Origin: a virus
Taxonomy: Duplodnaviria > Caudoviricetes
Length of the DNA stretch: 64,000 nucleotides
Virus record (IMG/VR): IMGVR_UViG_3300025909_000005
Reading direction: 5' to 3' (one strand)
Part shown: in pieces, positions 7,569-60,314 of the stretch
Numbering within the stretch: position 1 is the stretch's first letter
How the letters are laid out: each line of letters opens with the position of its first letter
The notes under the pieces: model-generated
The model's input: the letters and a program-made list of their open reading frames with translations, nothing else
Told to the model about the DNA's origin: nothing
The model's database searches: none
Program-made: the position numbers and the translations under genes

Positions 7569-8755
7569 AAGAATTCCTGAAGATCACCTACGGCTCGAAG
7601 CTGTACGGAACGAACACGCCCACGTCGGACACCGACGAGAAGGTGGTGTACATTCCTGAGCTCAACGAGTTGCTCCTGTGCAGGACGCCAGGCATCTTCA
7701 AGAGGCGCTTCGATGCTGAAGGGCGACAGCTGAACGACAACGAAAAGATGGCCGACAACGGCGTCGAGACCGAGTACATCCCGCTGCAGCGCTTCGTTCG
7801 CGACTTCGTCGCTGGTCAGACTTACGCGCTGGAGATCGCGCACGGCTACATGTCGAACGTCGACAAGATGACGGTCACCGATGCTGAAAATATGACCCAA
7901 GCGGAGTATGACGAGTTCATCTCCAAAGTGGAGTTCGTCGACGACCTCATCACACTCTTCTCGAACTCCGAGGTCTACTCGATGGTTGGCTTCGCGGCCA
8001 AGCAGACGTTCGACTACGTGAAACGCGGTGAACGACTCAACGAGGCGCGCAAGGTGATGGCTGTTCTGTCAGCAATCCGGCTGGACGTGAGCTTGGAGCT
8101 CGCTGCTCCTACGTCTGTTCAGGTTCCTCCTGAAGGTTCGTGGCAGCTTGAAAGTTCGAAGTTCAAGGTGAGCGACATCGAGACATCGAACCCGAATCCT
8201 GCTCAAGGTCCGAACAAGCGACTTGAGATTCGTCTCGACACGCCGTACCTTGGTGCAGCTGTGCTGGACGCAATCGCGCTGCAGACCGGTCTACCAATTG
8301 GTGAAGCTGTTTCGAACGGCAACCGAAAGCTGCGGACGCTCGAGCTGAACGGTCGGCAGTACCTCGAGACGACCACGATCGATCATGTCACGAGCCAAGT
8401 GGCGAAGTTGATCCAGCAGTATGGTGATCGGTCGACGGATGCGGCAGAAAAGGACGTCGACTACAAGTCGCTGTCTCACGCTGTACGCGTCTACGAACAG
8501 GCAATCGAACTGCTCGATACCCGTCGGATCAAGTTCCCCCGGCCGAACGCTGACTTCCTGCTCGATATCAAGCAGGGTTCGATCAGCCTTGAGACCGTGA
8601 AGGAGCTGCTGTCATCTCTCGACGCAGAGGTGAAGGAAGCCATCGCGACTTCAAAGCTGCCTGCGCGAACGCCCGCTCTAGAGGCTGAAGCTGACAAGTG
8701 GATGCTGGAACAGCTCCAGAAGATCTACAAGACGCACCGTCTCAGCGCGGAGTGA
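7565..8755 (+). CDS. DNA polymerase beta-superfamily nucleotidyltransferase
   Basis: YGSKLYGTNTPTSDTD (GS...DxD) and C-terminal KSLSHAVR helix. Confidence 0.8.
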   Translation: MKEFLKITYGSKLYGTNTPTSDTDEKVVYIPELNELLLCRTPGIFKRRFDAEGRQLNDNEKMADNGVETEYIPLQRFVRDFVAGQTYALEIAHGYMSNVDKMTVTDAENMTQAEYDEFISKVEFVDDLITLFSNSEVYSMVGFAAKQTFDYVKRGERLNEARKVMAVLSAIRLDVSLELAAPTSVQVPPEGSWQLESSKFKVSDIETSNPNPAQGPNKRLEIRLDTPYLGAAVLDAIALQTGLPIGEAVSNGNRKLRTLELNGRQYLETTTIDHVTSQVAKLIQQYGDRSTDAAEKDVDYKSLSHAVRVYEQAIELLDTRRIKFPRPNADFLLDIKQGSISLETVKELLSSLDAEVKEAIATSKLPARTPALEAEADKWMLEQLQKIYKTHRLSAE

Positions 8756-14780: not shown

Positions 14781-15632
14781 ATGGACAATATGAAGCCGCG
14801 TTACATTAGAGTCGTTAGCGACCTCCACCTCGAACAGTACTCGGGCAACCGCCCTGAGTTCAATCTGAAGACGTTTATTCCCGAGGATCCTCGCGATGCC
14901 GAGTCAGTTCTCGTGTTGGCTGGTGACATCGACTCTCACCCGGAAACGCTGTACCCGTTTCTTCAAGTTGCACCTACGCGGTTCATGCATGCGATTTATG
15001 TGCCTGGAAACCATGAGTTCTACGGTCACGACATGGATGAGTGGGCAAAGAACCTTCAAGCGCTGGCCGATGCGTACGCCTTTCCAAAGCTGAGTCTCTC
15101 GACGCTGGGTGTTGGCGAGCTGAAGCTAGAGAACGTCCGCTTCATCTTCACCACGTTGTGGGGAGATGGTGGCAAGTCACAATATGAACAGCTGATGGTC
15201 GGAAAGTACCTGCGTGACTTCTCCGTGATTCGTCGCAGTGGGCGTGGCTTCAAGGTGCCCGACATGATCGAGCTGCACAAGCAGCAGCGCGCAGAAGTAG
15301 AGCGTTTGTTGGGCGAACCGTTCGATGGCGTGAATGTCGTCGTCTCGCACCACATGCCCTCGTACCGCTTGTGTCATCCGCGCTTTGGCACGGATGCCAA
15401 TGGCGGTTTCGCGTCGAACATGGACCTGTTCCTGTCGCATGATACCGCGCCGCACATCTGGATTCATGGCCATACGCATGATTCCATCGACACCCGTCTA
15501 TGGAAGACCCGCGTCGTCTGCAACCCATCGGGTTACTACTTTGAGAACGATGCACGCTACAAGAACTTCAAGCCCAGGTTTCTTGACCTAGAGAACCTTA
15601 ATGAGGATCGTGAGGCGCAAGTCGATGGCTGA
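14781..15632 (+). CDS. calcineurin-like metallophosphoesterase
   Basis: SDLHLE, AGDI, PGNHEFY, SHHMPS and HGHTH motifs. Confidence 0.9.
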   Translation: MDNMKPRYIRVVSDLHLEQYSGNRPEFNLKTFIPEDPRDAESVLVLAGDIDSHPETLYPFLQVAPTRFMHAIYVPGNHEFYGHDMDEWAKNLQALADAYAFPKLSLSTLGVGELKLENVRFIFTTLWGDGGKSQYEQLMVGKYLRDFSVIRRSGRGFKVPDMIELHKQQRAEVERLLGEPFDGVNVVVSHHMPSYRLCHPRFGTDANGGFASNMDLFLSHDTAPHIWIHGHTHDSIDTRLWKTRVVCNPSGYYFENDARYKNFKPRFLDLENLNEDREAQVDG

Positions 15633-18756: not shown

Positions 18757-20154
18757 ATGACAGAAGAAATCATCATCGTGGATGACGGCACAGCTGTGGC
18801 CGAGCGCATCAGGGAACTCATCGCTGAAGCAGTGGCAGACGGCCGCAAGCTCGTCACTGTTCGTACCATCGACGCGATCAACGACATCCCCGGTGCCGAC
18901 CTCATCAAGGTCGCACAGATCGAGGGCTGGCAGGTCGTCGTGAAGGCCGGCGAGTTCAACGTCGGAGACCCGTGCGTCTTCTTCGAGGTCGACGCGTTCC
19001 TGCAGCTGAGTGACCCGCGCTTCGCGTTCCTTGAGAAGAACGCCATCACGTGGCACGGTATTCGTGGTGCTCGCCTCAAGACCATTCGCCTGCGCAAGCA
19101 GCTGTCGCAGGGTCTCGCGCTGCCGCTGAAGGACTTCCCAGAGATCATCGCTGAGTGGGACCGTCTCTGCAACGAGCCGGGCGTGAAGGCCGCCAACACG
19201 ACCATTCGTGACGTGAACTTCACTGGCGTCGTTGGCGTCATGAAGTGGGAGAAGATCATGAGCGCCCAGCTGGCTGGTCAGGCTCGTGGCAACTTCCCAT
19301 CCTTCATCCAGAAGTCGGACCAGGAGCGTGCGCAGAACATGGGCGACCGCATCTTCAGCTACGACGAGCAGCTGCGTCCAGTCGACATCAGCGGCATCTC
19401 GATGGAGCAGCTGACCCTCGCCTTCGACGCGAAGCGTATCATCGAGAAGAACGGCCAGTACTTCACGGTCGTGCCGCCGCGTGCCTCACGTGAGACGCGC
19501 TACGACATCACCATCAAGCTCGATGGCAGCTCCATGACGATGTACTGCCGCCTGCCGGACAGCGAAGGTGACATGCTCATCAAGGATGCCGAAGGCAACG
19601 TCATCGGCAACGGCGTGCAGTCAGGCGTCTGCTCTCGCAACCTCGACCTCAAGATCGAGGGCAACGAAGGCAACTCGTTCGTCGACATGGCGCAGAGCGG
19701 CATGCTCGATCAGCTGGTCGAGTACTGCAAGCGGACTGGTCGCAGCCTCGCGCTGCAGGGCGAGCTCATGGGTCCTGGCATTCAGGGCAACCGTGAAGGC
19801 CTGACTGAGAACAAGTTCTTCCTCTACAACATCTTCAACATCAACACGGGCGTCTACCTCGCTCCTGAAGAACGTTACAAGGTGCTGGCAGAGATCAACG
19901 CCCTCGCAGATGAAGGCATCGACCCGCGCTTCAAGTACATCGCGCACGTGCCGGTTCTCTTCCCGACCGAGCGGTTCGGGGATAACGGCATGAGCCTTGC
20001 TGAACTTGGCATCACCGACATGGCATCGCTGCTGAAGTTCGCCGAAGGCAAGTCACTGCACAACGCCGTGCGTGAAGGTCTCGTCTTCAAGGCGTACGAC
20101 GGCACGCACCAGTTCAAGGTGATCAGCAACCTCTACCTCGAACAGGAGAAGTAA
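18757..20154 (+). CDS. RNA ligase (Rnl2/DRB0094-like) with N-terminal OB-like domain
   Basis: KLDGSS motif I, LQGELMG, REGLVFK, FKVISNLYL. Confidence 0.85.
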   Translation: MTEEIIIVDDGTAVAERIRELIAEAVADGRKLVTVRTIDAINDIPGADLIKVAQIEGWQVVVKAGEFNVGDPCVFFEVDAFLQLSDPRFAFLEKNAITWHGIRGARLKTIRLRKQLSQGLALPLKDFPEIIAEWDRLCNEPGVKAANTTIRDVNFTGVVGVMKWEKIMSAQLAGQARGNFPSFIQKSDQERAQNMGDRIFSYDEQLRPVDISGISMEQLTLAFDAKRIIEKNGQYFTVVPPRASRETRYDITIKLDGSSMTMYCRLPDSEGDMLIKDAEGNVIGNGVQSGVCSRNLDLKIEGNEGNSFVDMAQSGMLDQLVEYCKRTGRSLALQGELMGPGIQGNREGLTENKFFLYNIFNINTGVYLAPEERYKVLAEINALADEGIDPRFKYIAHVPVLFPTERFGDNGMSLAELGITDMASLLKFAEGKSLHNAVREGLVFKAYDGTHQFKVISNLYLEQEK

Positions 20155-22053: not shown

Positions 22054-23727
22054 ATGGCAAAACTCAAGGCGGCCCCAAAGGCCATTCTGATCGCCGCTGT
22101 GCTGGGCATCGCCGGTTACGGCGTCCACGCAGCGATGAATGCGGGCTACTTCAAGCCGAAGGCAACCATCGCGTCGTCCGTCCCGGACAAGATCGACCTG
22201 CCGACCGCAGGCGCGAACTCCACCACGACCTCCGGCACCGTGATCGCCCCGATCACCGCCAACTCGGCCGACACCGTCAAGGTCGACACCCTCGCGTGGA
22301 ACGCGACGATGGGCATGCACTACGCCAACGGCGGCGTGGACACGGCGAGCGGCTCGCTCATGGACAAGCACGGCCTGAAGGTGCATCTCGTCCGCCAGGA
22401 CGACTACAGCAAGATGGTCGCTGACCTCGCGCTGAACGCCAAGGACCCTTCGCAGGGCGCCAACTTCGTCGTCATCATGGGCGACGGCTACCCGGCCTTC
22501 GTCAAGGGCGCGAACGACGCGCTCAAGCAGTTCAACACCTCCGCCGAAGTCGTCGGCTCGCTCGGCTACAGCCGCGGCGAAGACAAGTGCGTGATCGACG
22601 CGAACGCCTCCCCGAAGGGCGCCCTGATCGCCGGCGTGCTCGGTGACGGCGACATCAACATCTGCATCAAGTACGCCTCCGACAACGGCATCGTCGTCAA
22701 CAGCGACCCGAAGACCTACGACCCGAACGCGATGAACTTCGTCGGCGTGTCGGCCTTCACCGATGCTGACCAGAAGTTCATCGCCGGCGCCAGCGACCGC
22801 GGCCACACGATCAACGGCACCGCCACCTGGACGCCGGGCGACGTGAACGTCTACGACCACCACCCGAACATCAAGGTCCTCGCCTCCACGAAGGAGTACG
22901 CGTGGCAGATGCCGGCCGTCGTGATCGGCAACAAGGCCTGGATGGCCGCTCACCCCGACGTCGTGAAGGCCTTCCTCGCGGCTTCGTTCGAAGGTGGCGA
23001 AGCAGTTCGCTCCGATGACAGCGCCCTGCTGAAGGGTGCCGCAGTCGAAGCCAAGGTCTACGGCGAGCAAGACGCGAACTACTGGGCGACGTACTTCAAG
23101 GGCACCACGAAGGGTGGCATCGCACTGGGCGGCTCGACGACCAGCGGCCTCGCCGACAACGCCTTCCTGTTCGGCCTGAAGGGCAACGACAACCTGTACA
23201 AGAAGGTCTACGACGTCTACGGCAAGATCGCGGTGAAGTACTTCCCTGACAACCTGCCGGCCCTCGTGCCCTACGGTCAAGTCGTGAACACCACCTACGT
23301 GCAGGCCCTGCTCGACTCGGCAACGAACGTCGGTGAAGCAGCGAAGCCGGTCTACGGTGGTCAGAAGTCGGAAGTCGTGGCGAACAAGAGCTACAGCATC
23401 GAGTTCGAAACGGGCAAGGCGACCCTGAAGCCGGCGTCGATCGCGGTCCTCAACGACCTGCTCGACCAGATCGCGGTCTCCAGCCTGAGCGTTCAAGTGA
23501 ACGGCCACACCGACAACGTCGGCGACCCGAACGCGAACCTCGCCCTGTCGAAGGCACGTGCCGAAACGGTGAAGCAGTTCCTGATGGCCAACGCCAGCGG
23601 CAACTTCCCGTCGGAACGCATCACGACCCGCGGTTACGGTGACACCCAGCCGGTCGCCGACAACTCGACCGCTGCCGGCAAGGCGAAGAACCGCCGCGTC
23701 GAAGTCGTGCTCTTCAGCACGAAGTAA
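22054..23727 (+). CDS. periplasmic substrate-binding protein (NMT1/SsuA-like) fused to an OmpA C-terminal peptidoglycan-binding domain
   Basis: N-terminal anchor; C-terminal IEFETGKA..GHTDNVG...NLALSKARAETV...GYGDTQPVADN....KNRRVE. Confidence 0.85.
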   Translation: MAKLKAAPKAILIAAVLGIAGYGVHAAMNAGYFKPKATIASSVPDKIDLPTAGANSTTTSGTVIAPITANSADTVKVDTLAWNATMGMHYANGGVDTASGSLMDKHGLKVHLVRQDDYSKMVADLALNAKDPSQGANFVVIMGDGYPAFVKGANDALKQFNTSAEVVGSLGYSRGEDKCVIDANASPKGALIAGVLGDGDINICIKYASDNGIVVNSDPKTYDPNAMNFVGVSAFTDADQKFIAGASDRGHTINGTATWTPGDVNVYDHHPNIKVLASTKEYAWQMPAVVIGNKAWMAAHPDVVKAFLAASFEGGEAVRSDDSALLKGAAVEAKVYGEQDANYWATYFKGTTKGGIALGGSTTSGLADNAFLFGLKGNDNLYKKVYDVYGKIAVKYFPDNLPALVPYGQVVNTTYVQALLDSATNVGEAAKPVYGGQKSEVVANKSYSIEFETGKATLKPASIAVLNDLLDQIAVSSLSVQVNGHTDNVGDPNANLALSKARAETVKQFLMANASGNFPSERITTRGYGDTQPVADNSTAAGKAKNRRVEVVLFSTK

Positions 23728-30067: not shown

Positions 30068-31192
30068 ATGGCATCGAAAGTTCTGACCGTCTACATCGGT
30101 CGTTTCCAACCACTTCACAACGGACATGTCCACGTTCTGACGAATGCGCTTCGCACGTCGGACCACACGCTGGTGCTCGTCGGCAGCTCGTTCCGTTCCC
30201 GCACGATCAAGAACCCCTTCACGTTCGACGAACGTAAGGAAGTGCTCATGGCCTGGCACGACGACTCGGAGCTCGACAAGAAGAGCCTGACCGTTCTGCC
30301 ACTGCGTGACCAGCCCTACTCAAACTCCAAGTGGATCGAGTCGGTGCAGAAGACGGTCCACAACTTCATGATCGAGAAGCATCTCGACCCCCGCACCACT
30401 GAAGTTCGCCTCACCGGTTCCGACCGTGACGAGTCGACCTGGTACCTGCAGGCCTTCCCGCAGTGGAAGCTGGCGCTCTGCGCTCCAGTTCCTGCCGGCC
30501 GCGACCTCTCAGCCACCAACCTCCGTCATGAGCTGTTCGGCGCCATGCTTGGCACGGCCATCAAGGACGACACCCCTCGCATCACGCAGTTCTTCATCGA
30601 GAAGTTCCGATTCGGCGAGGAGTTCGCGCTCCTCAAGGCCGAGTACGACTTCATCGAGAAGTACAAGAAGGCCTGGAAGGCAGCACCCTACGCACCCTAC
30701 TTCCTGACCGTCGACGGCGTCGTGATCCAATCCGGCCACGTGCTGGTCGTCCGCCGCGGCGCCCTCCCTGGCAAGGGCCTGCTCGCTCTGCCTGGTGGCT
30801 TCCTCGATCAGAACGAGCGCCTCGCCGACGGCGTGGTTCGTGAACTCATCGAGGAAACGGGTCTGCGTCTGGCTGACGGCAAGAACGCCGAACGCATCAC
30901 GAAGTCGATGCTGCAGGGCGCCATCAAGGCGAAGGAAATCTTCGACGATCCGAATCGCTCGCTGCGTGGTCGCACCGTGACGACTGCCTACCTCATCCGC
31001 CTCGATGACACCAAGCCGCTTCCGAAGGTGAAGGGCCAGTACGCACCGCTCCACGAGACCGGCGGCAAGCTCGTCGTCGAAACGGCTGACGCGTTCTGGA
31101 TGCCGATCGCCGACGCGCTGCGCGACAGCTCGGTGTGGTTCGAGGACCACTACTACATTCTCGAGACGATGCTCGGCTTTGCGAAGGACTGA
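30068..31192 (+). CDS. bifunctional NMN adenylyltransferase / NUDIX (ADP-ribose) hydrolase (NadM-Nudix, NatV-like)
   Basis: GRFQPLHNGH (HxGH), LSATNLR, ALPGGF....E......RELIEETG, WFEDH. Confidence 0.92.
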   Translation: MASKVLTVYIGRFQPLHNGHVHVLTNALRTSDHTLVLVGSSFRSRTIKNPFTFDERKEVLMAWHDDSELDKKSLTVLPLRDQPYSNSKWIESVQKTVHNFMIEKHLDPRTTEVRLTGSDRDESTWYLQAFPQWKLALCAPVPAGRDLSATNLRHELFGAMLGTAIKDDTPRITQFFIEKFRFGEEFALLKAEYDFIEKYKKAWKAAPYAPYFLTVDGVVIQSGHVLVVRRGALPGKGLLALPGGFLDQNERLADGVVRELIEETGLRLADGKNAERITKSMLQGAIKAKEIFDDPNRSLRGRTVTTAYLIRLDDTKPLPKVKGQYAPLHETGGKLVVETADAFWMPIADALRDSSVWFEDHYYILETMLGFAKD

Positions 31193-33524: not shown

Positions 33525-33579
33525 TGTACGTGGGTCCTACTCTGTGATACAATGGAGTAGGACCCACAATGGAGCAAGC

Positions 33580-34887
33580 ATGGCAGGATCACGAATCGCA
33601 CCAGTACTCGCAGTGATTGGAGCTGGTTACGGTGACGAAGGCAAGGGCCTCTTCACCGACTACCTTGCCCGCAAGCACTCGAGATTCCAAGGCACGAAGG
33701 TTCCTCTCGTCATGAGAGGAAACGGTGGTGCACAAGCTGGCCACACTGTCGTCGATGGCACGAGGCGTCACGTCTTTGGCCACATCGGCTCAGGCACGAT
33801 GGCTGGTGCTCGTACCTACCTCGCTGAGAACTTCATCGTCAACCCCATGGCCTTCGCTCCTGAACTGGAGAAGGTGAAGGCCCTTGGCATGGACCCGACC
33901 GTCTATGCCCACTCCAACTGCCGTGTCACAACGATCTTCGACATGGCGCTGAATTCCCTGGCCGAGCTCTTCCGAGGTCGCGCCCTTCACGGCTCATGCG
34001 GCTACGGCATCAACGAGACCGTGACTCGCAACGAGGCGGGCTACTACCTCACGATGGCTGACATCCGTGCAGGCACCGCAGTTCTCGCAACCAAGCTCGA
34101 GGACATCCTTCGCGAGTACGTACCGACCCGGCTCTATGCCATCGGCTACCAGGAATGGGACCGCGACTCGGCCACCCCGCAAGTCAGAGCGCAGGCGGAC
34201 GTCTACCTCAAGACCGTCATGGTGCAACAGGACGATCGTGCGGCCCACTGCAGCGCCCTCGCATCGAGGATGCAGAAGGACGTTCACTCGATCCACCTCT
34301 ACGACCCGAAGTCGTTCACGTGGTCAGGCGAGCCGATCATCTACGAAGGTGCACAAGGCCTGCTGCTCGACGAGTACCACGGTACGTTCCCGCACGTGAC
34401 CCGCTCCGTGACAGGCGTCGCCTCCGCTGTTCGTGCTGCCGCTGAAGCTGGACGCACTCAAGTTCAGCCGTACTACATCACGCGCTGCTACACGACCCGC
34501 CACGGTGCGGGTCCCCTGTACAAGGAAGGCGAGATCATCACCGATGGCGTCCGCTCGCTTCCTGATGAAACGAACATGCCGAACCAGCACCAGGGCACGC
34601 TGCGCTTCGCACCGCTGAATCTCGGCCACCTTCGGAACGCAATCGAGCGAGACATGGAACGTGCACGTCACGTCGGCCAGGTCTTCAACATCGAGGTCCT
34701 TCAGCCGAAGCTTGTCGTCACCCACCTCGACCAGCTCGGCCGCAAGGTGCAGTTTGCTGGATGGAGCTACCTTGTCGAGAGTGAAGCTGCTGCGAAAGCA
34801 ATCGGCAACTTCCTCGAGGTGTCCGTCTCGCACGTTTCCTACGGACCTGAAGCAAAGGATGTACGAGAGTTCACCTCTGAGCTATAA
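33580..34887 (+). CDS. purA: divergent adenylosuccinate synthetase (PurA-like)
   Basis: GAGYGDEGKG, NGGAQAGHT, EGAQGLLLD, PHVTRS, TRHGAGP, THLD. Confidence 0.8.
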   Translation: MAGSRIAPVLAVIGAGYGDEGKGLFTDYLARKHSRFQGTKVPLVMRGNGGAQAGHTVVDGTRRHVFGHIGSGTMAGARTYLAENFIVNPMAFAPELEKVKALGMDPTVYAHSNCRVTTIFDMALNSLAELFRGRALHGSCGYGINETVTRNEAGYYLTMADIRAGTAVLATKLEDILREYVPTRLYAIGYQEWDRDSATPQVRAQADVYLKTVMVQQDDRAAHCSALASRMQKDVHSIHLYDPKSFTWSGEPIIYEGAQGLLLDEYHGTFPHVTRSVTGVASAVRAAAEAGRTQVQPYYITRCYTTRHGAGPLYKEGEIITDGVRSLPDETNMPNQHQGTLRFAPLNLGHLRNAIERDMERARHVGQVFNIEVLQPKLVVTHLDQLGRKVQFAGWSYLVESEAAAKAIGNFLEVSVSHVSYGPEAKDVREFTSEL

Positions 34888-34946: not shown

Positions 34947-36419
34947 ATGTCTGAAAAACTCGTTCCCTACACCCCGAAGCGCCTCACGTACAACCCGCTG
35001 ATGCGCACGGACAGCTACAAGTTCTCGCACGCCTTCTCGTACCCGAGCAACGCCACTGGCATGTTCTCGTACATCGAGGCCCGCACCGGCGGCCAGGACA
35101 TCATCGTCCCTTTCGGCCTGCAGATCTGGCTGAACGAACACCTCTCCATTCCCATCACCGCAGAGAACATCGACGAGGCCGAGCTCTTCGCAGCTGCCCA
35201 CGGTGAACCCTTCAGCCGCGCGGCCTGGGAGAAGGTCCTCAACAAGTATCACGGCTACATGCCCGTGACCATCCGCGCCGTTCCCGAAGGCACGCCGGTT
35301 CCGAGCGGCAACGCCCTCGTGACCATCCAGTGCGAGGACGAAGAGCTCGTCGGCGAAGTCAACAGGATTCTCGTCTTCTGGATCGCCTCGTACCTCGAGA
35401 CGCAGATGCTGCGCGCCTACTGGTACCCGACCACTATCGCCACCCTCGACCGTGCGACGAAGCTGCAGATCAAGCGCTTCTACGAAATCGCCGGTGCCGA
35501 CCTCAACTTCCTGCCCTTCTCGCTGCACGACTTCGGCGGCCGCGGCGTTTCGTCCGGCGAGACCGCTGCCATCGGCGGTGCCGCCCACCTGCCGTCCTTC
35601 ATGGGCTCGGACACGGTCGAAGGCGTTCGCTACGCCAACTTCTACTACGACGAGGCCATGTCGGCCTTCTCCGTCCGTGCGACGGAGCACTCGGTCGCCT
35701 GCTCGTTCGGCCTGTCGGATGAAGACGAGATCGCGTACATCGCCCACCAGCTGAAGGTCTTCGAAGGCAATGGCAACATCATCTCGATGGTCGGCGACTC
35801 GAAGAGCATCAAGCGCTTCGCAAAGCACCTGTGCACGACCTTCCGTGACCAGATCATGGACCTCCATGAGCGCCTCGGCATGAAGATCGTCTGCCGCCCG
35901 GACTCCGGCGATCCGCTCGAGATCATTCCGATGCTGCTGAAGATGTTCGCTGACGCGTTCCCGACCACGAAGACCAGCGCCGGCTACATCAAGCTCTACC
36001 CCGGCATCGGCATCCTGCAGGGCGACGGCGTCGATCGCATGACGATCCTCACCATCCTCGGCAACATCATGGCCATGAACTTCTCGCCGGACAACATCGT
36101 CTTCGGTTCCGGTGGCGGCCTGCTGCAGAAGGTCAACCGCGACACGTTCAAGTTCGCGATGAAGGCCTCTGCGATCAAGGTCGACGGCAAGTGGAAGGGC
36201 ATCGTCAAGGACCCGGAAACCGACCCCGGCAAGAAGTCGAAGGAAGGCATCCTGACCCTCGCGACGAACGGCCTCGGTGACTACCTCACGGTGCGCCTCG
36301 ACAACTCCGAGAACCCGTACCCGCGCGGCTATCACGATGCCATGGTCACGGTCTACGACAAGGGCCAGTTCTACAACCATACGACGCTGGCTGAAGTCCG
36401 CGCCCGCTGCGCGGTCTAA
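34947..36419 (+). CDS. nadV: nicotinamide phosphoribosyltransferase (NAMPT/NadV)
   Basis: TDSYKFSH, LHDFGGRG, ATEHS, RPDSGDP, QGDG, FGSGGGLLQKVNRDT, KDP.TDPGKKSK.G. Confidence 0.93.
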   Translation: MSEKLVPYTPKRLTYNPLMRTDSYKFSHAFSYPSNATGMFSYIEARTGGQDIIVPFGLQIWLNEHLSIPITAENIDEAELFAAAHGEPFSRAAWEKVLNKYHGYMPVTIRAVPEGTPVPSGNALVTIQCEDEELVGEVNRILVFWIASYLETQMLRAYWYPTTIATLDRATKLQIKRFYEIAGADLNFLPFSLHDFGGRGVSSGETAAIGGAAHLPSFMGSDTVEGVRYANFYYDEAMSAFSVRATEHSVACSFGLSDEDEIAYIAHQLKVFEGNGNIISMVGDSKSIKRFAKHLCTTFRDQIMDLHERLGMKIVCRPDSGDPLEIIPMLLKMFADAFPTTKTSAGYIKLYPGIGILQGDGVDRMTILTILGNIMAMNFSPDNIVFGSGGGLLQKVNRDTFKFAMKASAIKVDGKWKGIVKDPETDPGKKSKEGILTLATNGLGDYLTVRLDNSENPYPRGYHDAMVTVYDKGQFYNHTTLAEVRARCAV

Positions 36420-39576: not shown

Positions 39577-40221
39577 ATGCCAAACGCAGTTGTAAAGAGC
39601 TACGCCAAGAAGACTGGAAAGTCGCCTGAGCACATCGAAGGATGGTGGAAGGAGGCCGAGAAGGAAGCCAAGAAGAAGTTCCCAAAGAAGGGCCCTCACT
39701 ACTGGGCGTACGTGAACGGCATCGTGAAGCGCCGTGGTGGCATCAAGGAGGTCATCGGCTTCCGTGACTTCGTTGACCTGCTCTCAGAAGAGGATGGCGG
39801 TGAGAAGGAGTCAGCGCTCTCCAAGATGTCCAAGGAACACGGTCCTGTCCTGGACAGGATCGAGAAGATCAAGGACCTTGGGCGCACCTTCGACAAGGCT
39901 CTCAAGGCTGACGGAGATGAGAAGGCGAAGGGCAACTACGCGCACTGGCTGAAGACGACCGACAAGTACCGAGTCGCCTACTTCACCGACACCGATCTCG
40001 ACATTGAAACCGTCCTCGTCTTCCGCGGCCACAAGTGCTTCGGCCTGGCATCGAAGAACGACAGCGACGCAATCATCGACTTCAAGTTCGTGCCAATGGA
40101 ACGCAGCGACTGGCAGGCGATCGAGGACTTCAGCTTGGACAACCTTGACTCCTCGGCTACAATCACTGATGAGAACCTCGACCACTATGTTGAGATGATT
40201 CTCCAGGCCACTCATAAATAA
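39577..40221 (+). CDS. hypothetical protein
   Basis: SD AAGGA; basic N-terminal half. Confidence 0.7.
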   Translation: MPNAVVKSYAKKTGKSPEHIEGWWKEAEKEAKKKFPKKGPHYWAYVNGIVKRRGGIKEVIGFRDFVDLLSEEDGGEKESALSKMSKEHGPVLDRIEKIKDLGRTFDKALKADGDEKAKGNYAHWLKTTDKYRVAYFTDTDLDIETVLVFRGHKCFGLASKNDSDAIIDFKFVPMERSDWQAIEDFSLDNLDSSATITDENLDHYVEMILQATHK

Positions 40222-40260
40222 ACCAGAGCACAGGTTGAGGCCTGTGCTATAATAGAAACA

Positions 40261-40560
40261 TACTGCAGCAATGCAGTTGTATTGTCGTAATTCGGCATGA
40301 CTTGAAGGATTTGAGACGCGGGTTCGATTCCCGCCGGCTCCACCACAAATCATCTTAGCAAGAACCTTACGCCAACGTTGTGGCAAGGAAAGCAGCAAGG
40401 GTGATTTGTCATGGGGCCGACCAGGCTATCGATCAGGTTACGGAGATGATTGACGCGACACGTCGTAGTGACGTTAAAAACTCGTCTAGTAAACGCAAAC
40501 GACTCCAACTACGCGATCGCCGCTTAATAACCGGCCCGCGCGCGGCATAAGCCACCGTGT
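40261..40560 (+). ncRNA. ssrA: circularly permuted (two-piece) tmRNA: acceptor piece ending CCA at 40345, intervening segment, coding piece from G40413; tag ANDSNYAIAA at 40495-40524
   Basis: GACGCGGGTTCGATTCCCGCCGGCTCCACCA precedes GGGGCCGA; 7-bp acceptor stem with G3.U70; P2 pairing TCAGGTTA/TGACTTGA; TATAAT at 40248; outer ends approximate. Confidence 0.88.
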
Positions 40561-40574
40561 AAAAGAATGAGCTA

Positions 40575-40615
40575 GGACGGACCCGAGGAGCAATCTTTGG
40601 GTCCGTCTGCCTTTC
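40575..40615 (+). terminator. terminator-like hairpin after tmRNA
   Basis: GGACGGACCC...GGGTCCGTCT hairpin. Confidence 0.5.
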
Positions 40616-40676
40616 CAGGTCGATGGACCTGACTTTCGCTTCCATCGTAAATACGTTCAACTTCAAAGGAGTTGAG

Positions 40677-41111
40677 ATGATGACCCACCTTCTGGCCGCT
40701 GTAGTTGCAGTTGGCCTGGCCGCAGCAACACCCACACCTCGTCAACCCGTGTGGGATGACATAGCGAGTTCGAAGGTGTTCAAGATCAGTCTGGACCTAA
40801 AGTCGGTAGACGTCAAGGCAGACAACACGGTTCATTCTCAGCTGAAGGTCACGTACAACGTGCCCATCCCTGTGAAGGGAAAGAAGAAGACAGGGCACTA
40901 CTACATCGAGCAGGTAACTGCAGACTGCGGTGCCGACAAGCTCGTCGTGACTGGTGCCACACTGTTCTCAAAGGACGGTGAGCCTTTGGCGCAAGACGAC
41001 CACCTCAACATGGACCTGCCAAACAACCACATCGATGGCACGTTTGTCACGAGCTTCATGGACCTCATGTGTAACGGCGGCAAAAATACGATTCCTGCGA
41101 TCAACGTTTGA
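40677..41111 (+). CDS. secreted protein (adhesin-E-like beta protein)
   Basis: signal peptide, two Cys, TAAATA at 40648. Confidence 0.65.
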   Translation: MMTHLLAAVVAVGLAAATPTPRQPVWDDIASSKVFKISLDLKSVDVKADNTVHSQLKVTYNVPIPVKGKKKTGHYYIEQVTADCGADKLVVTGATLFSKDGEPLAQDDHLNMDLPNNHIDGTFVTSFMDLMCNGGKNTIPAINV

Positions 41112-41140: not shown

Positions 41141-41259
41141 GAAGGATGTTGTAGCTCACCGGGAGAGCGGCCCCGAGGACGGGGTGTCCAATCATGTTCA
41201 GTCGGGTTCGCCCGTCATGCGTGATAGCGTAGGTGGTTCGATTCCATCCACAACCTTCA
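41141..41259 (+). ncRNA. tRNA-like element with expanded central region; identity undetermined
   Basis: D-arm GCTC/GAGC and T-arm GGTGG-TTCGATT-CCATC present; no canonical anticodon arm. Confidence 0.4.
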
Positions 41260-41274
41260 GTGTTATTGTTCGAC

Positions 41275-41346
41275 GCCTCGGTAGCTCAGTGGTAGAGCGG
41301 ATGCCTCTAAAACGTCGGGTCGTGGGTTCGATTCCCACCCGGGGCA
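41275..41346 (+). tRNA. amber suppressor tRNA, anticodon CUA (copy 1; CCA not encoded)
   Basis: GCCTCGG/CCGGGGC acceptor; anticodon loop CT-CTA-AA; canonical D and T arms; C-A mismatch at 31:39. Confidence 0.85.
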
Positions 41347-41355
41347 CAGATAAGG

Positions 41356-41568
41356 ATGACCATGGGACGTAGACTTTCCCTGCATGAAATGAATGCCATC
41401 AGGCATGAGGACGATGTTCGCAACTCGCAGATCAAGCGAGGCGAATGGAAGCCGAAGACAAACAACAACTATCACTGCGTGTGTGGTTGTGGTGCGTTCG
41501 CATGCGTGTTCGTGAGCTCAATTCCGCAGACGGTCCTGCCCATGGACGAACGATCAAATGTCTCTTAG
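41356..41568 (+). CDS. small Cys-containing protein between the two suppressor tRNAs
   Basis: SD AAGGA; HCVCGCG; stop TAG lies inside the downstream tRNA. Confidence 0.55.
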   Translation: MTMGRRLSLHEMNAIRHEDDVRNSQIKRGEWKPKTNNNYHCVCGCGAFACVFVSSIPQTVLPMDERSNVS

Positions 41569-41634
41569 CTCAATGGGTAGAGCGACGGTCTCTAAAACCG
41601 TATGTTCCGGGTTCGAGCCCCGGAGGGACGGCCA
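41559..41634 (+). tRNA. amber suppressor tRNA, anticodon CUA (copy 2)
   Basis: perfect anticodon stem ACGGT/ACCGT, loop CT-CTA-AA; weak T1.G72, G73, CCA encoded. Confidence 0.9.
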
Positions 41635-43141: not shown

Positions 43142-43498
43142 ATGCAATCGTAGATCCGCGAAGACGCCAAGACCTATCTGTACACCATCTCTCGCCGCGA
43201 CATCCCTCTCGCGCAACAAGCTGTGCAAGCCGGCCACGCCGCCCTTGAACACGCTTACCTCTACGGCCGTCCGGCCGACCATCACCCCTCCTACATTCAC
43301 CTGACGATTCGAGACAAGGAACGGCTCGAGAAGCAACGGCGTGCGCTCCAAGAAGCTGGCATTCCGACGGCCGAGTTCCACGAACCGTACAAGGACTGGG
43401 GTCTCACCGCCATTTCCTGCCTCCTCACCGAGGAACAACGTCACCACCTGAAGGGGCTCCAGCTGTGGCGCCTCCCCACCCAAGGAGAAGAAGCATGA
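43142..43498 (+). CDS. Pth2-like peptidyl-tRNA hydrolase with in-frame TAG at codon 4 (43151-43153); needs amber readthrough
   Basis: SD AAGGA then ATG CAA TCG TAG ATC...; YTISRRDIPLAQQAVQAGHAA...F.EP...LTAI matches the Pth2 fold, with its first strand upstream of the ORF-track start at 43223. Confidence 0.75.
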
Positions 43499-44459: not shown

Positions 44460-45029
44460 ATGACGTAGGTTTTCTCCCCCAAGCTGCAGGCTCTTCGTGA
44501 GAAGATGGCCGCCTGCAACCAGACCCAAGGCCAGACCATTCTCCAGCACGGCGAGTCCGTGGCCGAGTGGTACAAGGACCTGATTGGTGCACGCACACGT
44601 GAGTGGCGCCTGCCTGACTGGTTCGATCCCGCCCTCTTCGAGCTCTGCCCAGATGTGGGGACGATGGAGCGCTACCACATCTACCATGATTGTGGTAAGC
44701 CGTACTGCCGTACGGTTGACGAAGAAGGTCGTCAACACTTCCCTGACCATGCCCGTATCAGCGCCTCCATCTGGCGCGTGACCGGTGGCGACGCGGCTGT
44801 TGCTCGTCTCATCGAACACGACATGGACATGCACACCCTCAAGCCGGCAGATGCCGACACCTACCTGCACCTGGACATTGCTCCAGCTCTGCTTCTCACC
44901 GCCCTTGCTGAACTGCACTCCAACGCCGACATGTTCGGCGGGATCGAGAGCACGTCCTTCAAGATCAAGTTCAAGAACCTCAACAAGCTCGGCAACCGCC
45001 TCATCAACCGCATCAAGGAGATCGCATAA
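44460..45029 (+). CDS. HD-domain phosphohydrolase with in-frame TAG at codon 3 (44466-44468); needs amber readthrough
   Basis: SD AAGGA then ATG ACG TAG GTT TTC...in frame with ORF 44505; H...YHDCGKP...HFPDHA...IEHDM HD motifs. Confidence 0.72.
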
Positions 45030-52647: not shown

Positions 52648-53079
52648 ATGACACCAATCCAAGATTACATTCAGCTCCCACGAGAAACAAGACGTTCGCA
52701 TCTTGATCTCACTGCTGAGTGCTCGAAGATCGGTGGAACGTCGAAGGAGTTCAAAGGGCTTCTTGCTTACCATCTTGGAACAACGATTCCATCTGGTCGT
52801 CAAGTTTTCCTCTGCCATGCATGCCATAATGGAGCTTGCTCCAATGTCAAGCACCTCTACTGGGGAACTCCAAAGGACAACTACATTGACTGTGTAGAAG
52901 ATCGTGGAACACTCCATGAAAGAAGTTTGAAAATTCACGGTCAAGAGTTTCTTGCAAAGCGCTACACGAGTGGAAGCTCAGCAGGCGGAAAGGGAAATTC
53001 TGGAAGACCAAAATCCGAAGAGCACAAGCAAAAGATCGCTGAATCTCTGCGGAAGAAGAAAAATGCGGCTATGGTGTAG
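52648..53079 (+). CDS. HNH (His-Me finger) endonuclease
   Basis: LCHACHNGACSNVKHLYWGTPKDN; stop TAG inside tRNA-Gly. Confidence 0.8.
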   Translation: MTPIQDYIQLPRETRRSHLDLTAECSKIGGTSKEFKGLLAYHLGTTIPSGRQVFLCHACHNGACSNVKHLYWGTPKDNYIDCVEDRGTLHERSLKIHGQEFLAKRYTSGSSAGGKGNSGRPKSEEHKQKIAESLRKKKNAAMV

Positions 53080-53138
53080 TGGTAACCCATGACATTGCCA
53101 ATGTTAAGACGCGAGTTCGATTCTCGCTAGCCGCTCCA
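53065..53138 (+). tRNA. tRNA-Gly(GCC)
   Basis: loop TT-GCC-AA, U73-CCA. Confidence 0.88.
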
Positions 53139-56303: not shown

Positions 56304-56380
56304 GCCCTTGTACGCTAATCGGCAGTGCGGCTCCCCTTAAAATGGAGTGGTTGTGGGCTCGAATCCCACCTTGGGCACCA
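56304..56380 (+). tRNA. tRNA-Leu(UAA) with short variable loop
   Basis: loop CT-TAA-AA; U.U mismatches at 5:68 and 6:67. Confidence 0.65.
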
Positions 56381-59756: not shown

Positions 59757-59769
59757 TATAATCACCACA

Positions 59770-60172
59770 TGCTCAATCACCCGGCCTAACGCTGGCTTCA
59801 CGGCTAGAACAAGTTCGGGGCTGCACAGGACAGGGCTTGTCGCTCTGTGGAAGAAGCGGTCGTGCGTTGGAAACTGCCTTTAAACTCGAAAGGGTCGGAA
59901 GCTCCAGCAACGTTCAATCGTGGTCGATCTCTCGCGGTAACAGTGAGAGCTCTCTATTGCCACTTTAGCTTTGCTTGACCACAACGACTCCGCAGCAAGT
60001 CAAACAGACCTCGTCGACGCTGTCCGCTGAGGGGTCGGGTTGATGCACCTATGATCCGGATTGGAACCCGGGGAGGACGTCGGTCACACGGCGTAGTCAA
60101 ATGTTAGGAACCATCGGCGGTTGTGAATGCCTGATGGAGAAAGTAGAACCCCGGCTATGAGGTGATTGAGCA
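59770..60172 (+). ncRNA. rnpB: RNase P RNA (type A-like, divergent)
   Basis: 12-bp P1 TGCTCAATCACC/GGTGATTGAGCA; P2 CCTAAC/GTTAGG; P4 G(T)TCGGGG/CCCCGGC with bulged U; conserved-region look-alikes AACAAGTTCGGGGCT, GCAGCAAGTCAAACAG, AACCCGGGGAGG, TAGTCAAATG, AGAACCCCGGCTA; TATAAT at 59757. Confidence 0.85.
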
Positions 60173-60314
60173 CCTTTTACAAACACATCTCCATAAAAGA
60201 AGCAGATGAAGCACTTGTCCCTGCTAAATACTAGCAAGGATGAAGTTGAGATTCTTCCCGAATGCCGGTTCCCTCACGGACCCGAGAAGCATTCCAACCT
60301 TTTAAGGAGATGAC

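What the first reader, a model, noticed from the sequence alone, without database searches (positions are those of the whole stretch)
40248..40615. Circularly permuted two-piece tmRNA encoded by a phage
The tmRNA 3' end (T-arm plus CCA, ending 40345) comes before the 5' end (GGGGCCG at 40413). They are separated by a 67-nt intervening segment closed by ACAAATCA/TGATTTGT. The acceptor stem has G3.U70, P2 pairs across the two pieces, and the tag ANDSNYAIAA ends in a protease-recognition-type AA followed by TAA TAA. Permuted tmRNAs are established in alphaproteobacteria, some cyanobacteria and some Rhodocyclales; I do not know of a phage example, though I cannot exclude one. Maturation needs RNase P cleavage at G40413, and the phage appears to encode its own RNase P RNA.
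Basis: partly seen in the sequence, partly recalled or inferred. Interest (0 to 1): 0.85.

Follow-up and report, generated by a model that had tools for sequence, protein, structure and literature searches.

The report
Two-piece tmRNA gene in soil phage
A giant soil phage carries a complete, rearranged ("two-piece") gene for tmRNA, the RNA that frees stalled ribosomes and tags the unfinished protein for destruction; the gene is real and well conserved, but phage copies of this kind are already published and common, so it is a new member of a known kind.

Summary
ARAGORN calls a permuted tmRNA at 40253-40618 with tag ANDSNYAIAA**. Rfam matches tmRNA_permuted (102 bits, cut-off 47) and beta_tmRNA (91.9 bits, cut-off 84). 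All the coordinates given check out: CCA ends at 40345, G1 is at 40413, the spacer is 67 nt, G3.U70 is present, P2 pairs across the pieces and the stops are TAA TAA. The spacer-closing helix is 12 bp, not 8.

The setting is a tRNA-rich T4-like phage. Two soil-metagenome relatives keep the gene at 99.2% and 97% identity while their flanks are 95.6% and 92.6% identical. Ten of the 12 differences in the more distant relative fall within 28 nt around the resume codon and tag codons 4-6, without breaking the frame.

The novelty claim fails. Buchholz et al. 2022 (PMC9004378) describe a phage two-piece tmRNA and list 53 in public phages. This scan has also noted such genes on other DNA.

The phage RNase P RNA claim (59757-60176) is unsupported: Rfam, an nhmmer profile of 30 real RNase P RNAs and fold energy were negative, leaving only short collinear motifs.

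No SmpB gene lies in the window.

The parts
40245..40253 (+). Extended -10 promoter-like motif TGCTATAAT. The transcript is predicted to start near A40260.
   Evidence: TGNTATAAT occurs 5 times in the window, all on the + strand, against 0.12 expected. This copy lies 7 nt before the first hairpin of the RNA. It is identical in relatives L150 and L127. Promoter activity is inferred, not shown.
40260..40345 (+). Acceptor piece (3' tRNA-like half). It holds the 5' hairpin 40262-77, the P2 5' strands 40283-40314, GAC 40315-17, the T-arm 40318-34, the acceptor 3' strand 40335-41, discriminator A 40342 and an encoded CCA 40343-45.
   Evidence: Rfam alignments to RF04321 and RF01850, ARAGORN and the sequence itself. 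There are no differences from L150 and one structure-preserving change in L127 (40275, U-A to U.G). The 5' end is a prediction.
40346..40412 (+). Intervening spacer (67 nt), excised on maturation. It is closed by a 12-bp leader-trailer helix (40345-56 / 40398-40409) that sits one 3x3 internal loop away from the acceptor stem.
   Evidence: Pattern match. MFE and centroid folds are identical, at -39.7 kcal/mol and z -4.94. A closing helix of 9 or more pairs is present in 62 of 104 unique spacers of this gene family, against about 0.4 expected from shuffles. Excision itself was not observed.
40413..40494 (+). 5' part of the coding piece. It holds the acceptor 5' strand GGGGCCG 40413-19 (G3 pairs with U40339), the D-loop analogue 40420-32, the P2 3' strands 40433-60, a hairpin CGUC/GACG at 40461-73 where PK1 normally lies, and a linker to the resume codon with U at -5 and A at -4.
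   Evidence: Rfam alignments. In 92 unique family members G3.U is present in 92 of 92, and the innermost P2 helix is 88% paired in register against 32-57% out of register. No second stem for PK1 could be found.
40495..40530 (+). Tag reading frame GCA AAC GAC TCC AAC TAC GCG ATC GCC GCT (ANDSNYAIAA), followed by TAA TAA.
   Evidence: The relatives encode ANDSNFAIAA** (L150) and ANDNLFAIAA** (L127). Frame, resume codon, C-terminal AIAA and the double stop are all kept despite 5 changes in codons 4-6.
40531..40615 (+). 3' domain of the coding piece. It includes a 10-bp hairpin 40575-84 / 40599-40608 whose loop GAGG (40585-88) could pair with CCUU (40610-13) to form a PK2-like pseudoknot.
   Evidence: The hairpin is matched by the last helix of RF01850 and appears in the MFE folds. 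There are no differences in L150 or L127. The pseudoknot is my reading of the sequence and has no covariation support.
40616..40641 (+). Terminator-like hairpin CAGGTC-GATG-GACCTG followed by ACTTTCGCTT.
   Evidence: Consensus scan. It lies before the likely real start (ATG 40677, preceded by AAGGAG) of the next gene.

Best explanation
This is a functional phage gene for a two-piece tmRNA of the beta-like type.

Proposed mechanism:
1. One precursor, about 380 nt long, is transcribed from an extended -10 promoter (40245-53) to a hairpin terminator (40616-41).
2. The T-arm and 3' acceptor strand, which come first, pair with the 5' acceptor strand that follows the 67-nt spacer. The spacer's own ends form a 12-bp helix that holds the two strands in register.
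3. RNase P cuts before G40413, and 3' trimming stops at the encoded CCA (40345). This releases the spacer and leaves an acceptor piece and a coding piece joined by the 7-bp acceptor stem and about 18 pairs of P2.
4. Host AlaRS charges the RNA through G3.U70 and discriminator A.
5. With host SmpB and EF-Tu it enters ribosomes stalled on broken or stop-less mRNAs. Translation resumes at GCA 40495 and adds ANDSNYAIAA. The ribosome terminates at TAA TAA, and the tagged protein goes to the host proteases.

For the phage, this adds ribosome-rescue capacity during an infection that degrades host mRNA. It fits with the phage's roughly 27 tRNAs and its RNA-repair enzymes.

Shown: sequence and structural membership, conservation, and the phage setting. 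Inferred: transcription, the cleavage sites, charging, dependence on SmpB, tagging and the benefit to the phage.
For: Family membership:
- ARAGORN and two Rfam models score above their curated cut-offs.
- All tRNA-like identity features are read directly.
- The tag frame is confirmed.

Selection:
- L150 differs at 3 of 396 nt, against 193 of 4478 in its flanks (Fisher 3e-5).
- L127 differs at 2 of 345 nt outside the tag patch, against 218 of 2931 in its flanks (Fisher 8.5e-9).
- The 5 changes inside the tag keep the frame, the resume codon, AIAA and both stops.
- The one change in the 5' hairpin keeps the pair.

Family-wide structure:
- G3.U is present in 92 of 92 members.
- Acceptor positions 5-6 and T-stem positions 1-3 covary.
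- P2 pairs only in register.
- The spacer-closing helix is common.

Own expression signals.

Phage setting:
- PHROG and Pfam hits to DNA polymerase, clamp loader, DNA ligase, RNA ligase, RlaP-like nucleotidyltransferase, HNH endonuclease, NAMPT/NadR and a PurZ-like enzyme.
- 27 tRNA genes.
- The best isolate match of one protein is T4-like Caulobacter phage Cr30, at 51% identity.

Precedent. The processing route is the one proposed for two-piece tmRNAs by Himeno et al. 2014 (PMC3985003).
Against: - There are no expression, processing or tagging data.
- The beta_tmRNA score (91.9) is only just above its cut-off of 84 and far below three bacterial members (169-296 bits). The first post-tag hairpin of that model aligns poorly.
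- PK1 appears only as a 4-bp hairpin with a 5-nt loop. I could not find a second stem.
- Plain MFE folding recovers the acceptor stem, the T-arm and the spacer helix, but not P2.
- The near-identity of the whole 396 nt, including the excised spacer and the promoter, could partly reflect recent exchange between related phages rather than constraint alone.
- No SmpB gene is in this window. Dependence on host SmpB is therefore assumed, and compatibility with it is untested.
Confidence: 0.77

Rival explanations
1. The RNA acts mainly as a decoy. Its tRNA-like domain soaks up host SmpB, AlaRS or EF-Tu, so host trans-translation is inhibited rather than supplemented, and the tag is irrelevant.
For: A phage tRNA-like-domain-only tmRNA (mycobacteriophage DS6A) is on record, and a similar molecule inhibits tmRNA (Hudson et al. 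2014, PMC4131195; PMC11915505). No phage SmpB lies in this window, so the RNA must compete for the host's. The tRNA-like domain is the most strictly conserved part.
Against: A full message domain is kept. The resume codon, the -5 U and -4 A, the 10-codon frame, the hydrophobic AIAA end and a double stop survive 10 substitutions in L127. The 84-nt 3' domain is identical in all three relatives. A decoy would not need any of these.
Confidence: 0.07
2. It is a recently captured host or foreign tmRNA gene carried as a passenger, with no role for the phage.
For: tmRNA genes are common integration sites, and fragments do end up in phages (discussion in PMC9004378). The uniform near-identity of the block, spacer included, is compatible with recent transfer.
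Against: The specific pattern scan of the species-representative bacterial and archaeal genomes gave one match. That match is a standard one-piece Cupriavidus tmRNA with a chance GGGGCCGA downstream. In the tree the gene sits on a long branch (0.75 changes per column) with only its two phage relatives. It uses the same extended -10 motif as four other + strand sites in this phage. Its position before the two tRNA-CUA genes is kept in L150 and L127.
Confidence: 0.06
3. It works as a tmRNA, but the tag serves a phage-specific purpose rather than bulk rescue, and the middle of the tag is evolving fast for that reason. Possible purposes are avoiding or redirecting the host adaptor and protease route, or reporting the state of host translation.
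For: Ten of the 12 differences between two phages that are otherwise 92-96% identical fall within 28 nt that cover positions -11 to -1 and tag codons 4-6 (SNY, SNF, NLF). The C-terminal AIAA is fixed (Fisher 9e-10 against the rest of the gene). Al-Shayeb et al. note that phages can use tmRNA to sense host state.
Against: There are only three sequences. Half of the clustered changes lie in the untranslated linker, which fits a small recombination patch as well as it fits selection on the peptide. Middle tag residues vary widely across the whole family anyway.
Confidence: 0.1

Closest known systems
Phage-encoded two-piece tmRNAs: Methylophilales phage Melnitz, pelagimyophages Mosig and HTVC008M, Caulobacter phiCbK-like phages and CcrPW/CcrSC/CcrBL9, Stenotrophomonas Mendera/Moby/YB07, and others (Buchholz et al. 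2022, PMC9004378, Table S1)
   Same: A permuted ssrA gene carried by large, often T4-like or jumbo, tRNA-bearing phages. It is complete with a tag frame and has no phage integrase context. The proposed role is upkeep of hijacked translation. I confirmed a permuted gene in CcrPW with ARAGORN and Rfam.
   Different: Melnitz and its relatives, and CcrPW, are alpha type (CcrPW: RF01849 66.8 bits). This one is beta-like. Buchholz et al. found 50 of 53 in marine or aquatic phages, whereas earlier notes of this scan call this genome a soil phage (not verified here). No glutamine riboswitch or any other Rfam element accompanies it. Sequence similarity to any GenBank phage is limited to the T-arm.
Betaproteobacterial two-piece tmRNA (Rfam RF01850; Sharkady and Williams 2004, cited from memory and through PMC9004378 and PMC3985003)
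   Same: Same gene order, the same P2 layout in the Rfam alignment, a short 10-residue ANDxxYAxAA-type tag, a UAAAxGC context before the resume codon, and a terminal long hairpin. All near neighbours also type as beta.
   Different: The score is 91.9 bits against 169-296 for three bacterial members. CCA is fully encoded here, while bacterial L168 and L169 read ..CCACCT/C. An extra hairpin of about 46 nt sits between promoter and P2. The first post-tag hairpin is not conserved. The gene lies on a long separate branch. The carrier is a phage, not a bacterial chromosome.
Xanthomonas phage JGB6 (OQ436456.1), and the many IMG/VR contigs over 100 kb with beta-type permuted tmRNA next to tRNA arrays
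   Same: Beta-type by Rfam (JGB6 94.7 bits; viral contigs 109-166 bits), carried by phages and adjacent to tRNA genes.
   Different: Only T-arm-level sequence similarity. The JGB6 gene is not annotated in GenBank and is overlapped by a 'hypothetical protein' CDS.
One-piece tmRNAs of mycobacteriophages (Bxz1 group), Bacillus phage G and huge phages (Hudson et al. 2014, PMC4131195; Al-Shayeb et al. 2020, PMC7162821)
   Same: A phage-borne ribosome-rescue RNA among other translation genes.
   Different: Those genes are collinear and give a single RNA. Some huge phages also carry SmpB, which was not found in this window.

Membership tests
Two-piece (circularly permuted) tmRNA | Permuted gene order: T-arm, 3' acceptor strand and CCA lie upstream of the 5' acceptor strand and the message domain, separated by an intervening segment. 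| tested here: met
   ARAGORN permuted call, RF04321 full-length match 1-213 and the coordinates read.
Two-piece (circularly permuted) tmRNA | A 7-bp acceptor stem with G3.U70, discriminator A and a CCA end (alanine identity). | tested here: met
   GGGGCCG (40413-19) pairs with CGGCTCC (40335-41), followed by ACCA. G3.U is present in 92 of 92 unique family members collected.
Two-piece (circularly permuted) tmRNA | A T-arm with the GGTTCGAnTCC-type loop, and no anticodon arm. | tested here: met
   GCGGG-TTCGATT-CCCGC at 40318-34.
Two-piece (circularly permuted) tmRNA | A long P2 helix formed between the two pieces. | tested here: met
   The Rfam alignment gives 18 standard pairs in 5 segments, with 2 mismatches. 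In the family the innermost helix is 88% paired in register against 32-57% when shifted. MFE folding alone does not recover it.
Two-piece (circularly permuted) tmRNA | A tag reading frame that starts at an alanine resume codon and ends in a hydrophobic ..AA degron plus a stop. | tested here: met
   GCA at 40495, ANDSNYAIAA, then TAA TAA. Kept in L150 and L127.
Two-piece (circularly permuted) tmRNA | A coding piece with PK1 before the tag and PK2 after it (Himeno et al. 2014). | tested here: inconclusive
   Only a hairpin (40461-73) sits at the PK1 site. A possible PK2 exists (hairpin 40575-40608, with loop GAGG pairing CCUU 40610-13). The relatives are identical there, so there is no covariation.
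Two-piece (circularly permuted) tmRNA | The precursor is cut into two RNAs. The RNA is charged with alanine, binds SmpB and tags proteins. | not testable with these tools
There are no biochemical data.
Beta-type two-piece tmRNA (RF01850) | A score at or above the curated cut-off of the clade-specific covariance model, and the best of the three permuted models. | tested here: met
   91.9 bits against 84, retained as the best of clan CL00001. This is marginal: bacterial members score 169-296.
Beta-type two-piece tmRNA (RF01850) | Groups with betaproteobacterial sequences rather than alphaproteobacterial ones in a tree. | tested here: inconclusive
   The gene lies outside the alpha clade (SH-aLRT 99), in the assemblage that holds the 3 bacterial beta genes and 99 viral ones. 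It sits on a long branch, and inner support is only 63-78. No cyanobacterial references were in the tree.
Phage-encoded RNase P RNA (claimed helper, 59757-60176) | Detectable homology to bacterial RNase P RNA (Rfam RF00010/RF00011, or a sequence profile). | tested here: not met
   No Rfam match at E<=1 on the window or at E<=10 on 901 nt. No nhmmer hit at E<=100 with a profile of 30 genuine RNase P RNAs. No blastn hit there. Fold z is -0.49. The only positive sign is collinear short motifs in a global alignment, z about 3.

The most novel reading that the evidence does not exclude
The tmRNA is matured by the phage itself. In this reading the unrecognised 400-nt RNA at 59757-60176, driven by the same TGnTATAAT promoter type, is a very divergent RNase P RNA, and the conserved 12-bp leader-trailer helix of the tmRNA precursor is its docking element. 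The phage would then carry a self-contained kit for maturing tRNAs and tmRNA and for rescuing ribosomes, next to its amber-suppressor tRNAs. The fast-changing middle of the tag would reflect an arms race with host adaptors or sensors.
Probability: 0.12. Interest if true: 0.7.

Novelty: new member of a known kind. Interest (0 to 1): 0.22.

Why it matters
The main value here is calibration. What looked like a first is a well-populated class. Permuted tmRNA genes have been published for phages since at least 2022. They are abundant in viral metagenome contigs and have been noted before in this scan. They are still left unannotated in GenBank records such as Caulobacter phage CcrPW and Xanthomonas phage JGB6.

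Three smaller points may be useful to people who work on trans-translation:
1. Most genes of this class close the excised spacer with a 9-16 bp leader-trailer helix next to the acceptor stem. I did not find this described in the papers I could read.
2. Between near-identical phages the gene is frozen except for a 28-nt patch over the resume-codon context and the middle of the tag.
3. In this sub-lineage the gene lies just upstream of suppressor tRNA genes.

None of these changes the basic reading of the gene.

Tried and rejected
- **Whole genome.** None is held for this window, so SmpB and other partners could be sought only in these 64 kb.
- **Close relatives among isolates.** Megablast of 20 kb against GenBank phages gave nothing. 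Distant blastn of the gene matched only T-arm stretches.
- **Close relatives in IMG/VR.** An exact 20-mer gave 0 hits. The search for related loci with two neighbouring proteins gave three distant loci without tmRNA, or nothing.
- **Bacterial source.** The one genome-contig hit (Cupriavidus sp. 2TAF22) is a standard one-piece tmRNA with a chance GGGGCCGA downstream, not a permuted relative.
- **PK1.** I looked for a second stem. The loop GUAGU/CGUAGU is complementary to ACUACG inside the tag, but L150 and L127 break that pairing. An alternative GACG/CGUC hairpin is also destroyed in L127. Both were rejected as chance.
- **Clustered L127 changes as compensatory pairs.** The 4-bp matches I found lie at different places in the two sequences, so this was rejected.
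- **Tag stop codon avoiding the nearby suppressor's codon.** This holds trivially for the amber-linked genes (TAA TAA). It fails for L163, which has tRNA-UUA nearby and a tag ending in TAA. TAA is the commonest stop anyway (99 of 116).
- **RNase P RNA at 59757-60176.** The Rfam, nhmmer, blastn and fold-energy tests were all negative.
- **SmpB.** tblastn with a genuine SmpB found nothing.
- **Neighbouring genes proposed by earlier notes.** Pfam does not recognise a Pth2 domain in 43142-43498 read with TAG=Q. The HD match at 44460-45029 is below its cut-off.
- **MFE cofolding of the two pieces.** It does not reproduce P2. I rely on the covariance-model alignment instead.

Full report
**1. Is it there?**

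Yes. ARAGORN, run on the whole window, calls one tmRNA, marked permuted, at 40253-40618 on the + strand, with tag ANDSNYAIAA**. Rfam release 15 gives two matches above the curated cut-offs:
- RF04321 tmRNA_permuted at 40283-40527 (102 bits, cut-off 47, E 9.5e-19, full model 1-213).
- RF01850 beta_tmRNA at 40181-40611 (91.9 bits, cut-off 84, E 1.8e-26).

Every coordinate in the finding checks against the sequence:
- T-arm GCGGG/TTCGATT/CCCGC at 40318-34.
- 3' acceptor strand CGGCTCC at 40335-41 and ACCA at 40342-45.
- A 67-nt spacer at 40346-40412.
- 5' acceptor strand GGGGCCG at 40413-19, giving seven pairs with G3.U.
- Tag at 40495-40524, followed by TAA TAA.

The Rfam alignment lays out P2 as five helical segments between the two halves, with 18 standard pairs and two mismatches.

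It has 12 pairs (40345-56 with 40398-40409), counting G.U pairs. The acceptor stem plus spacer folds at -39.7 kcal/mol, z = -4.94 against shuffles.

**2. Is it in a phage?**

The window has no bacterial housekeeping content that I could find. It gives these PHROG and Pfam matches:
- a DNA polymerase piece and a clamp loader;
- ATP-dependent DNA ligase and RNA ligase;
- an RlaP-like RNA-repair nucleotidyltransferase;
- an HNH endonuclease;
- NAMPT plus a NadR-like enzyme;
- a PurZ-like adenylosuccinate synthetase.

ARAGORN also finds 27 tRNA genes. Almost all genes lie on one strand, with about 82% coding density under the standard code. The best match of one conserved protein among GenBank phages is the T4-like Caulobacter phage Cr30, at 51% identity.

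Earlier notes of this scan on other windows of the same genome describe T4-type baseplate genes and capsid-targeting leaders, and call it a giant soil phage. I did not test those notes. They agree with what I see here.

**3. Is it maintained?**

A pattern scan of metagenome contigs found two close relatives, L150 and L127. Both carry the same arrangement: upstream gene, tmRNA, small lipoprotein-like gene, then two tRNA-CUA genes.
- L150 is 95.6% identical to the window over 4.5 kb, but differs at only 3 of 396 positions across promoter, gene and terminator (Fisher 3e-5).
- L127 is 92.6% identical in the upstream genes, but differs at 12 of 396 positions.

Ten of those 12 lie within 28 nt (40484-40511). 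These are positions -11, -10, -7, -2 and -1 before the resume codon, plus five changes in tag codons 4-6. Outside that patch the gene differs at 2 of 345 positions, against 218 of 2931 in the flanks (Fisher 8.5e-9).

The tags read ANDSNYAIAA, ANDSNFAIAA and ANDNLFAIAA. The frame, the GCA resume codon, the U at -5 and A at -4, the AIAA end and both stop codons are untouched. In E. coli the equivalent -5 and -4 positions matter for frame choice (from my own knowledge). The single change in the 5' hairpin turns U-A into U.G.

This is the pattern of a working gene, not a decaying passenger. I cannot say whether the patch is a small recombination tract or selection on the peptide.

**4. Family-wide checks**

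From all loci fetched I collected 92 unique permuted genes by anchoring on the T-arm.
- G3.U is present in all 92.
- Acceptor positions 5 and 6 and T-stem positions 1-3 take several different Watson-Crick pairs.
- The innermost P2 helix is 88% paired in the correct register and 32-57% paired when shifted.

A closing helix of at least 9 consecutive pairs between the first bases after CCA and the last bases before G1 occurs in 62 of 104 unique spacers. Shuffled spacers would give about 0.4. The leader-trailer helix is therefore a general trait of this gene class, not a peculiarity of this phage. The Rfam models do not annotate it, and I did not find it described in the papers I could read.

**5. 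Which lineage?**

Rfam keeps the beta model as the best of the clan, but the score is marginal. Three bacterial Burkholderiales genes found in a sample of 151 genomes score 169-296 bits. Viral contigs over 100 kb score 109-166, and Xanthomonas phage JGB6 scores 94.7. All near neighbours of this gene also type as beta.

I built a maximum-likelihood tree of 135 sequences: 20 bacterial alpha-type, 3 bacterial beta-type, CcrPW, JGB6, 99 IMG/VR, 10 metagenome and the window. The result:
- The alpha genes form a clade (SH-aLRT 99).
- The window, with L150 and L127 (support 100), sits on a long branch of 0.75 changes per column, inside the large beta-like assemblage.
- Inner support there is poor (63-78).

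No cyanobacterial references were included. The gene is beta-like and divergent. I would not claim more than that.

**6. How it most likely works**

The gene has the same extended -10 motif (TGNTATAAT) as four other + strand sites in the window: 5 found against 0.12 expected. It has a terminator-like hairpin at 40616-31. The proposed steps are these:
1. The precursor folds so that the spacer helix and the acceptor stem stack, separated by a 3x3 loop.
2. RNase P cleaves before G40413, and the 3' trailer is trimmed to the encoded CCA. This is the route proposed for two-piece tmRNAs in the review by Himeno et al. (PMC3985003).
3. Alanylation, SmpB binding, entry into stalled ribosomes, tagging and proteolysis then follow the established tmRNA pathway.

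All steps after the sequence features are inferred. No SmpB homologue lies in these 64 kb (tblastn with a genuine SmpB), so the host protein is presumably used. An OmpA-domain protein and an Adhesin_E-like lipoprotein suggest a Gram-negative host.

**7. The RNase P RNA remark**

The candidate lies at 59757-60176, according to first-reader notes on this window. The tests gave the following:
- Rfam finds nothing at E<=1 on the window, or at E<=10 on 901 nt around it.
- An nhmmer profile built from 30 genuine RNase P RNAs fetched from Pseudomonadota genomes finds nothing in the window at E<=100.
- blastn with a real rnpB finds nothing there.
- The fold energy is no better than shuffles, z = -0.49, although a 13-bp terminal helix is predicted.
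- A global alignment to a real rnpB does put CR-I-, CR-IV- and CR-V-like strings in the right order, with a score about 3 sd above shuffles.

I rate the claim unsupported but not excluded. It is not needed for the tmRNA reading.

**8. What is known**

- Buchholz et al. 2022 (PMC9004378) describe the two-piece tmRNA of phage Melnitz. They report 402 of 18,146 public phages with tmRNA genes, in 133 unique forms, of which ARAGORN two-piece. Their Table S1 names the phiCbK-like phages, CcrPW/CcrSC/CcrBL9, Stenotrophomonas, Bordetella, Sphingobium, Synechococcus and Pelagibacter phages, among others.
- Al-Shayeb et al. 2020 report tmRNAs and SmpB in huge phages.
- The 2025 tmRNA database lists 79 unique bacteriophage sequences.
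ARAGORN calls a permuted tmRNA in 105 of them.
- This scan's own index holds hundreds of notes on phage permuted tmRNAs in other genomes.

The kind is therefore known. This is a new, divergent member with no close relative among GenBank phages.

**9. Side observation on neighbours**

I compared tmRNA genes that share this acceptor and T-arm sequence. A suppressor tRNA lies 0.7-3.6 kb downstream on the same strand in three of four lineages: the window group, L139/L146 with CUA, and L163 with UUA. None of the 94 tRNAs in the 20 IMG/VR loci that have tRNAs is a suppressor (Fisher 0.002). The numbers are small, and shared descent may explain the pattern.

Earlier notes propose that the suppressors unlock two TAG-gated genes just downstream. 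Pfam did not confirm the proposed Pth2 domain, and gave only a sub-threshold HD match.

**10. Verdict**

The feature is real, the core reading is correct and the kind is known. Interest is low to modest.

Noticed in passing
window 59757-60176 (+): A gene-free stretch of about 400 nt behind TGATATAAT, which first readers call a divergent RNase P RNA. Negative tests: Rfam (E<=10), an nhmmer profile of 30 real RNase P RNAs, blastn, and fold energy (z -0.49). In its favour: a predicted 13-bp terminal helix, and collinear CR-I/CR-IV/CR-V-like strings in a global alignment to a real rnpB (z about 3). Unresolved.
   Followed up: partly
window 41275-41347 and 41559-41634 (+); L127, L150, L139, L146, L163: Two tRNA-CUA (amber suppressor) genes lie 0.7-0.9 kb downstream of the tmRNA and are kept in L127 and L150. 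More distant tmRNA genes with the same acceptor stem also have a suppressor tRNA (CUA or UUA) downstream. None of the 94 tRNAs near IMG/VR permuted tmRNAs is a suppressor. In a crude + strand gene call, TAG ends only about 2 of roughly 95 plausible genes in the window.
   Followed up: partly
window 40484-40511; L127 aligned (alignment A2): A hypervariable 28-nt patch. Ten of the 12 differences between the window and L127 in the 396-nt tmRNA unit lie here, half of them in the untranslated linker and half in tag codons 4-6. It could be a recombination tract or selection on the tag.
   Followed up: partly
104 unique spacers from L001-L165 and the window: In most permuted tmRNA genes collected, the excised spacer is closed by a leader-trailer helix of 9-16 consecutive pairs beside the acceptor stem: 62 of 104, against about 0.4 expected. 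The Rfam models do not annotate it.
   Followed up: yes
L124 2973-3388 (MH588545.1 about 140723-141138); L125 2952-3360 (OQ436456.1 about 52674-53082): The permuted tmRNA genes of Caulobacter phage CcrPW (alpha type) and Xanthomonas phage JGB6 (beta type) are not annotated in these GenBank records. In JGB6 a 'hypothetical protein' CDS on the opposite strand overlaps the gene.
   Followed up: yes
window 28544, 37263, 40245, 56069, 59754 (+): The extended -10 motif TGNTATAAT occurs five times, all on the + strand, against 0.12 expected. It lies before the tmRNA, before the RNase-P-like stretch, upstream of tRNA-Leu at 56304 and before two ORFs. It is probably a promoter class of this phage that needs no -35 element.
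   Followed up: partly
window 41141-41252 (+): A tRNA-like remnant that neither ARAGORN nor Rfam calls. It has a D-arm-like GTAGCTCA..GGGAGAGC, a T-arm GGTGGTTCGATTCCATCC and a long terminal pairing, with about 40 extra nt in the middle. Its fold energy is not better than shuffles (z 0.23).
   Followed up: partly
window 33544-34887 (+): An adenylosuccinate-synthetase homologue that matches the PHROG named '2-aminooxy adenylosuccinate synthetase' (PurZ-like, E 3.6e-57). This raises the possibility of a 2-aminoadenine (Z) genome.
   Followed up: no
window 7565-8755, 14781-15632, 18757-20154, 30068-31192, 34947-36419 (+): An RNA-repair set (RlaP-like nucleotidyltransferase, metallophosphoesterase, RNA ligase with a PHA02142 OB domain) and an NAD-salvage set (NadR-like cytidyltransferase/NUDIX, NAMPT) sit in the same 30 kb as the tmRNA.
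   Followed up: partly
L127 2319-2821: L127 has about 500 bp inserted between the upstream gene and the tmRNA promoter hairpin. This stretch is absent from the window and from L150. Identity resumes exactly at the hairpin before the -10 motif.
   Followed up: no
L168, L169 (bacterial beta-type tmRNA genes): Two bacterial beta-type genes read ..CTCCACCT/C after the acceptor strand, so the terminal A of CCA is not encoded. The phage gene encodes the full CCA.
   Followed up: no
window 40677-41111 and 22054-23727 (+): The gene right after the tmRNA encodes a small signal-peptide protein with a weak Adhesin_E match (24.3 bits, cut-off 23.7). The listed ATG at 40623 lies inside the terminator hairpin, and the likely start is 40677. 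A 557-aa protein carries a C-terminal OmpA domain. Both point to a Gram-negative host.
   Followed up: partly
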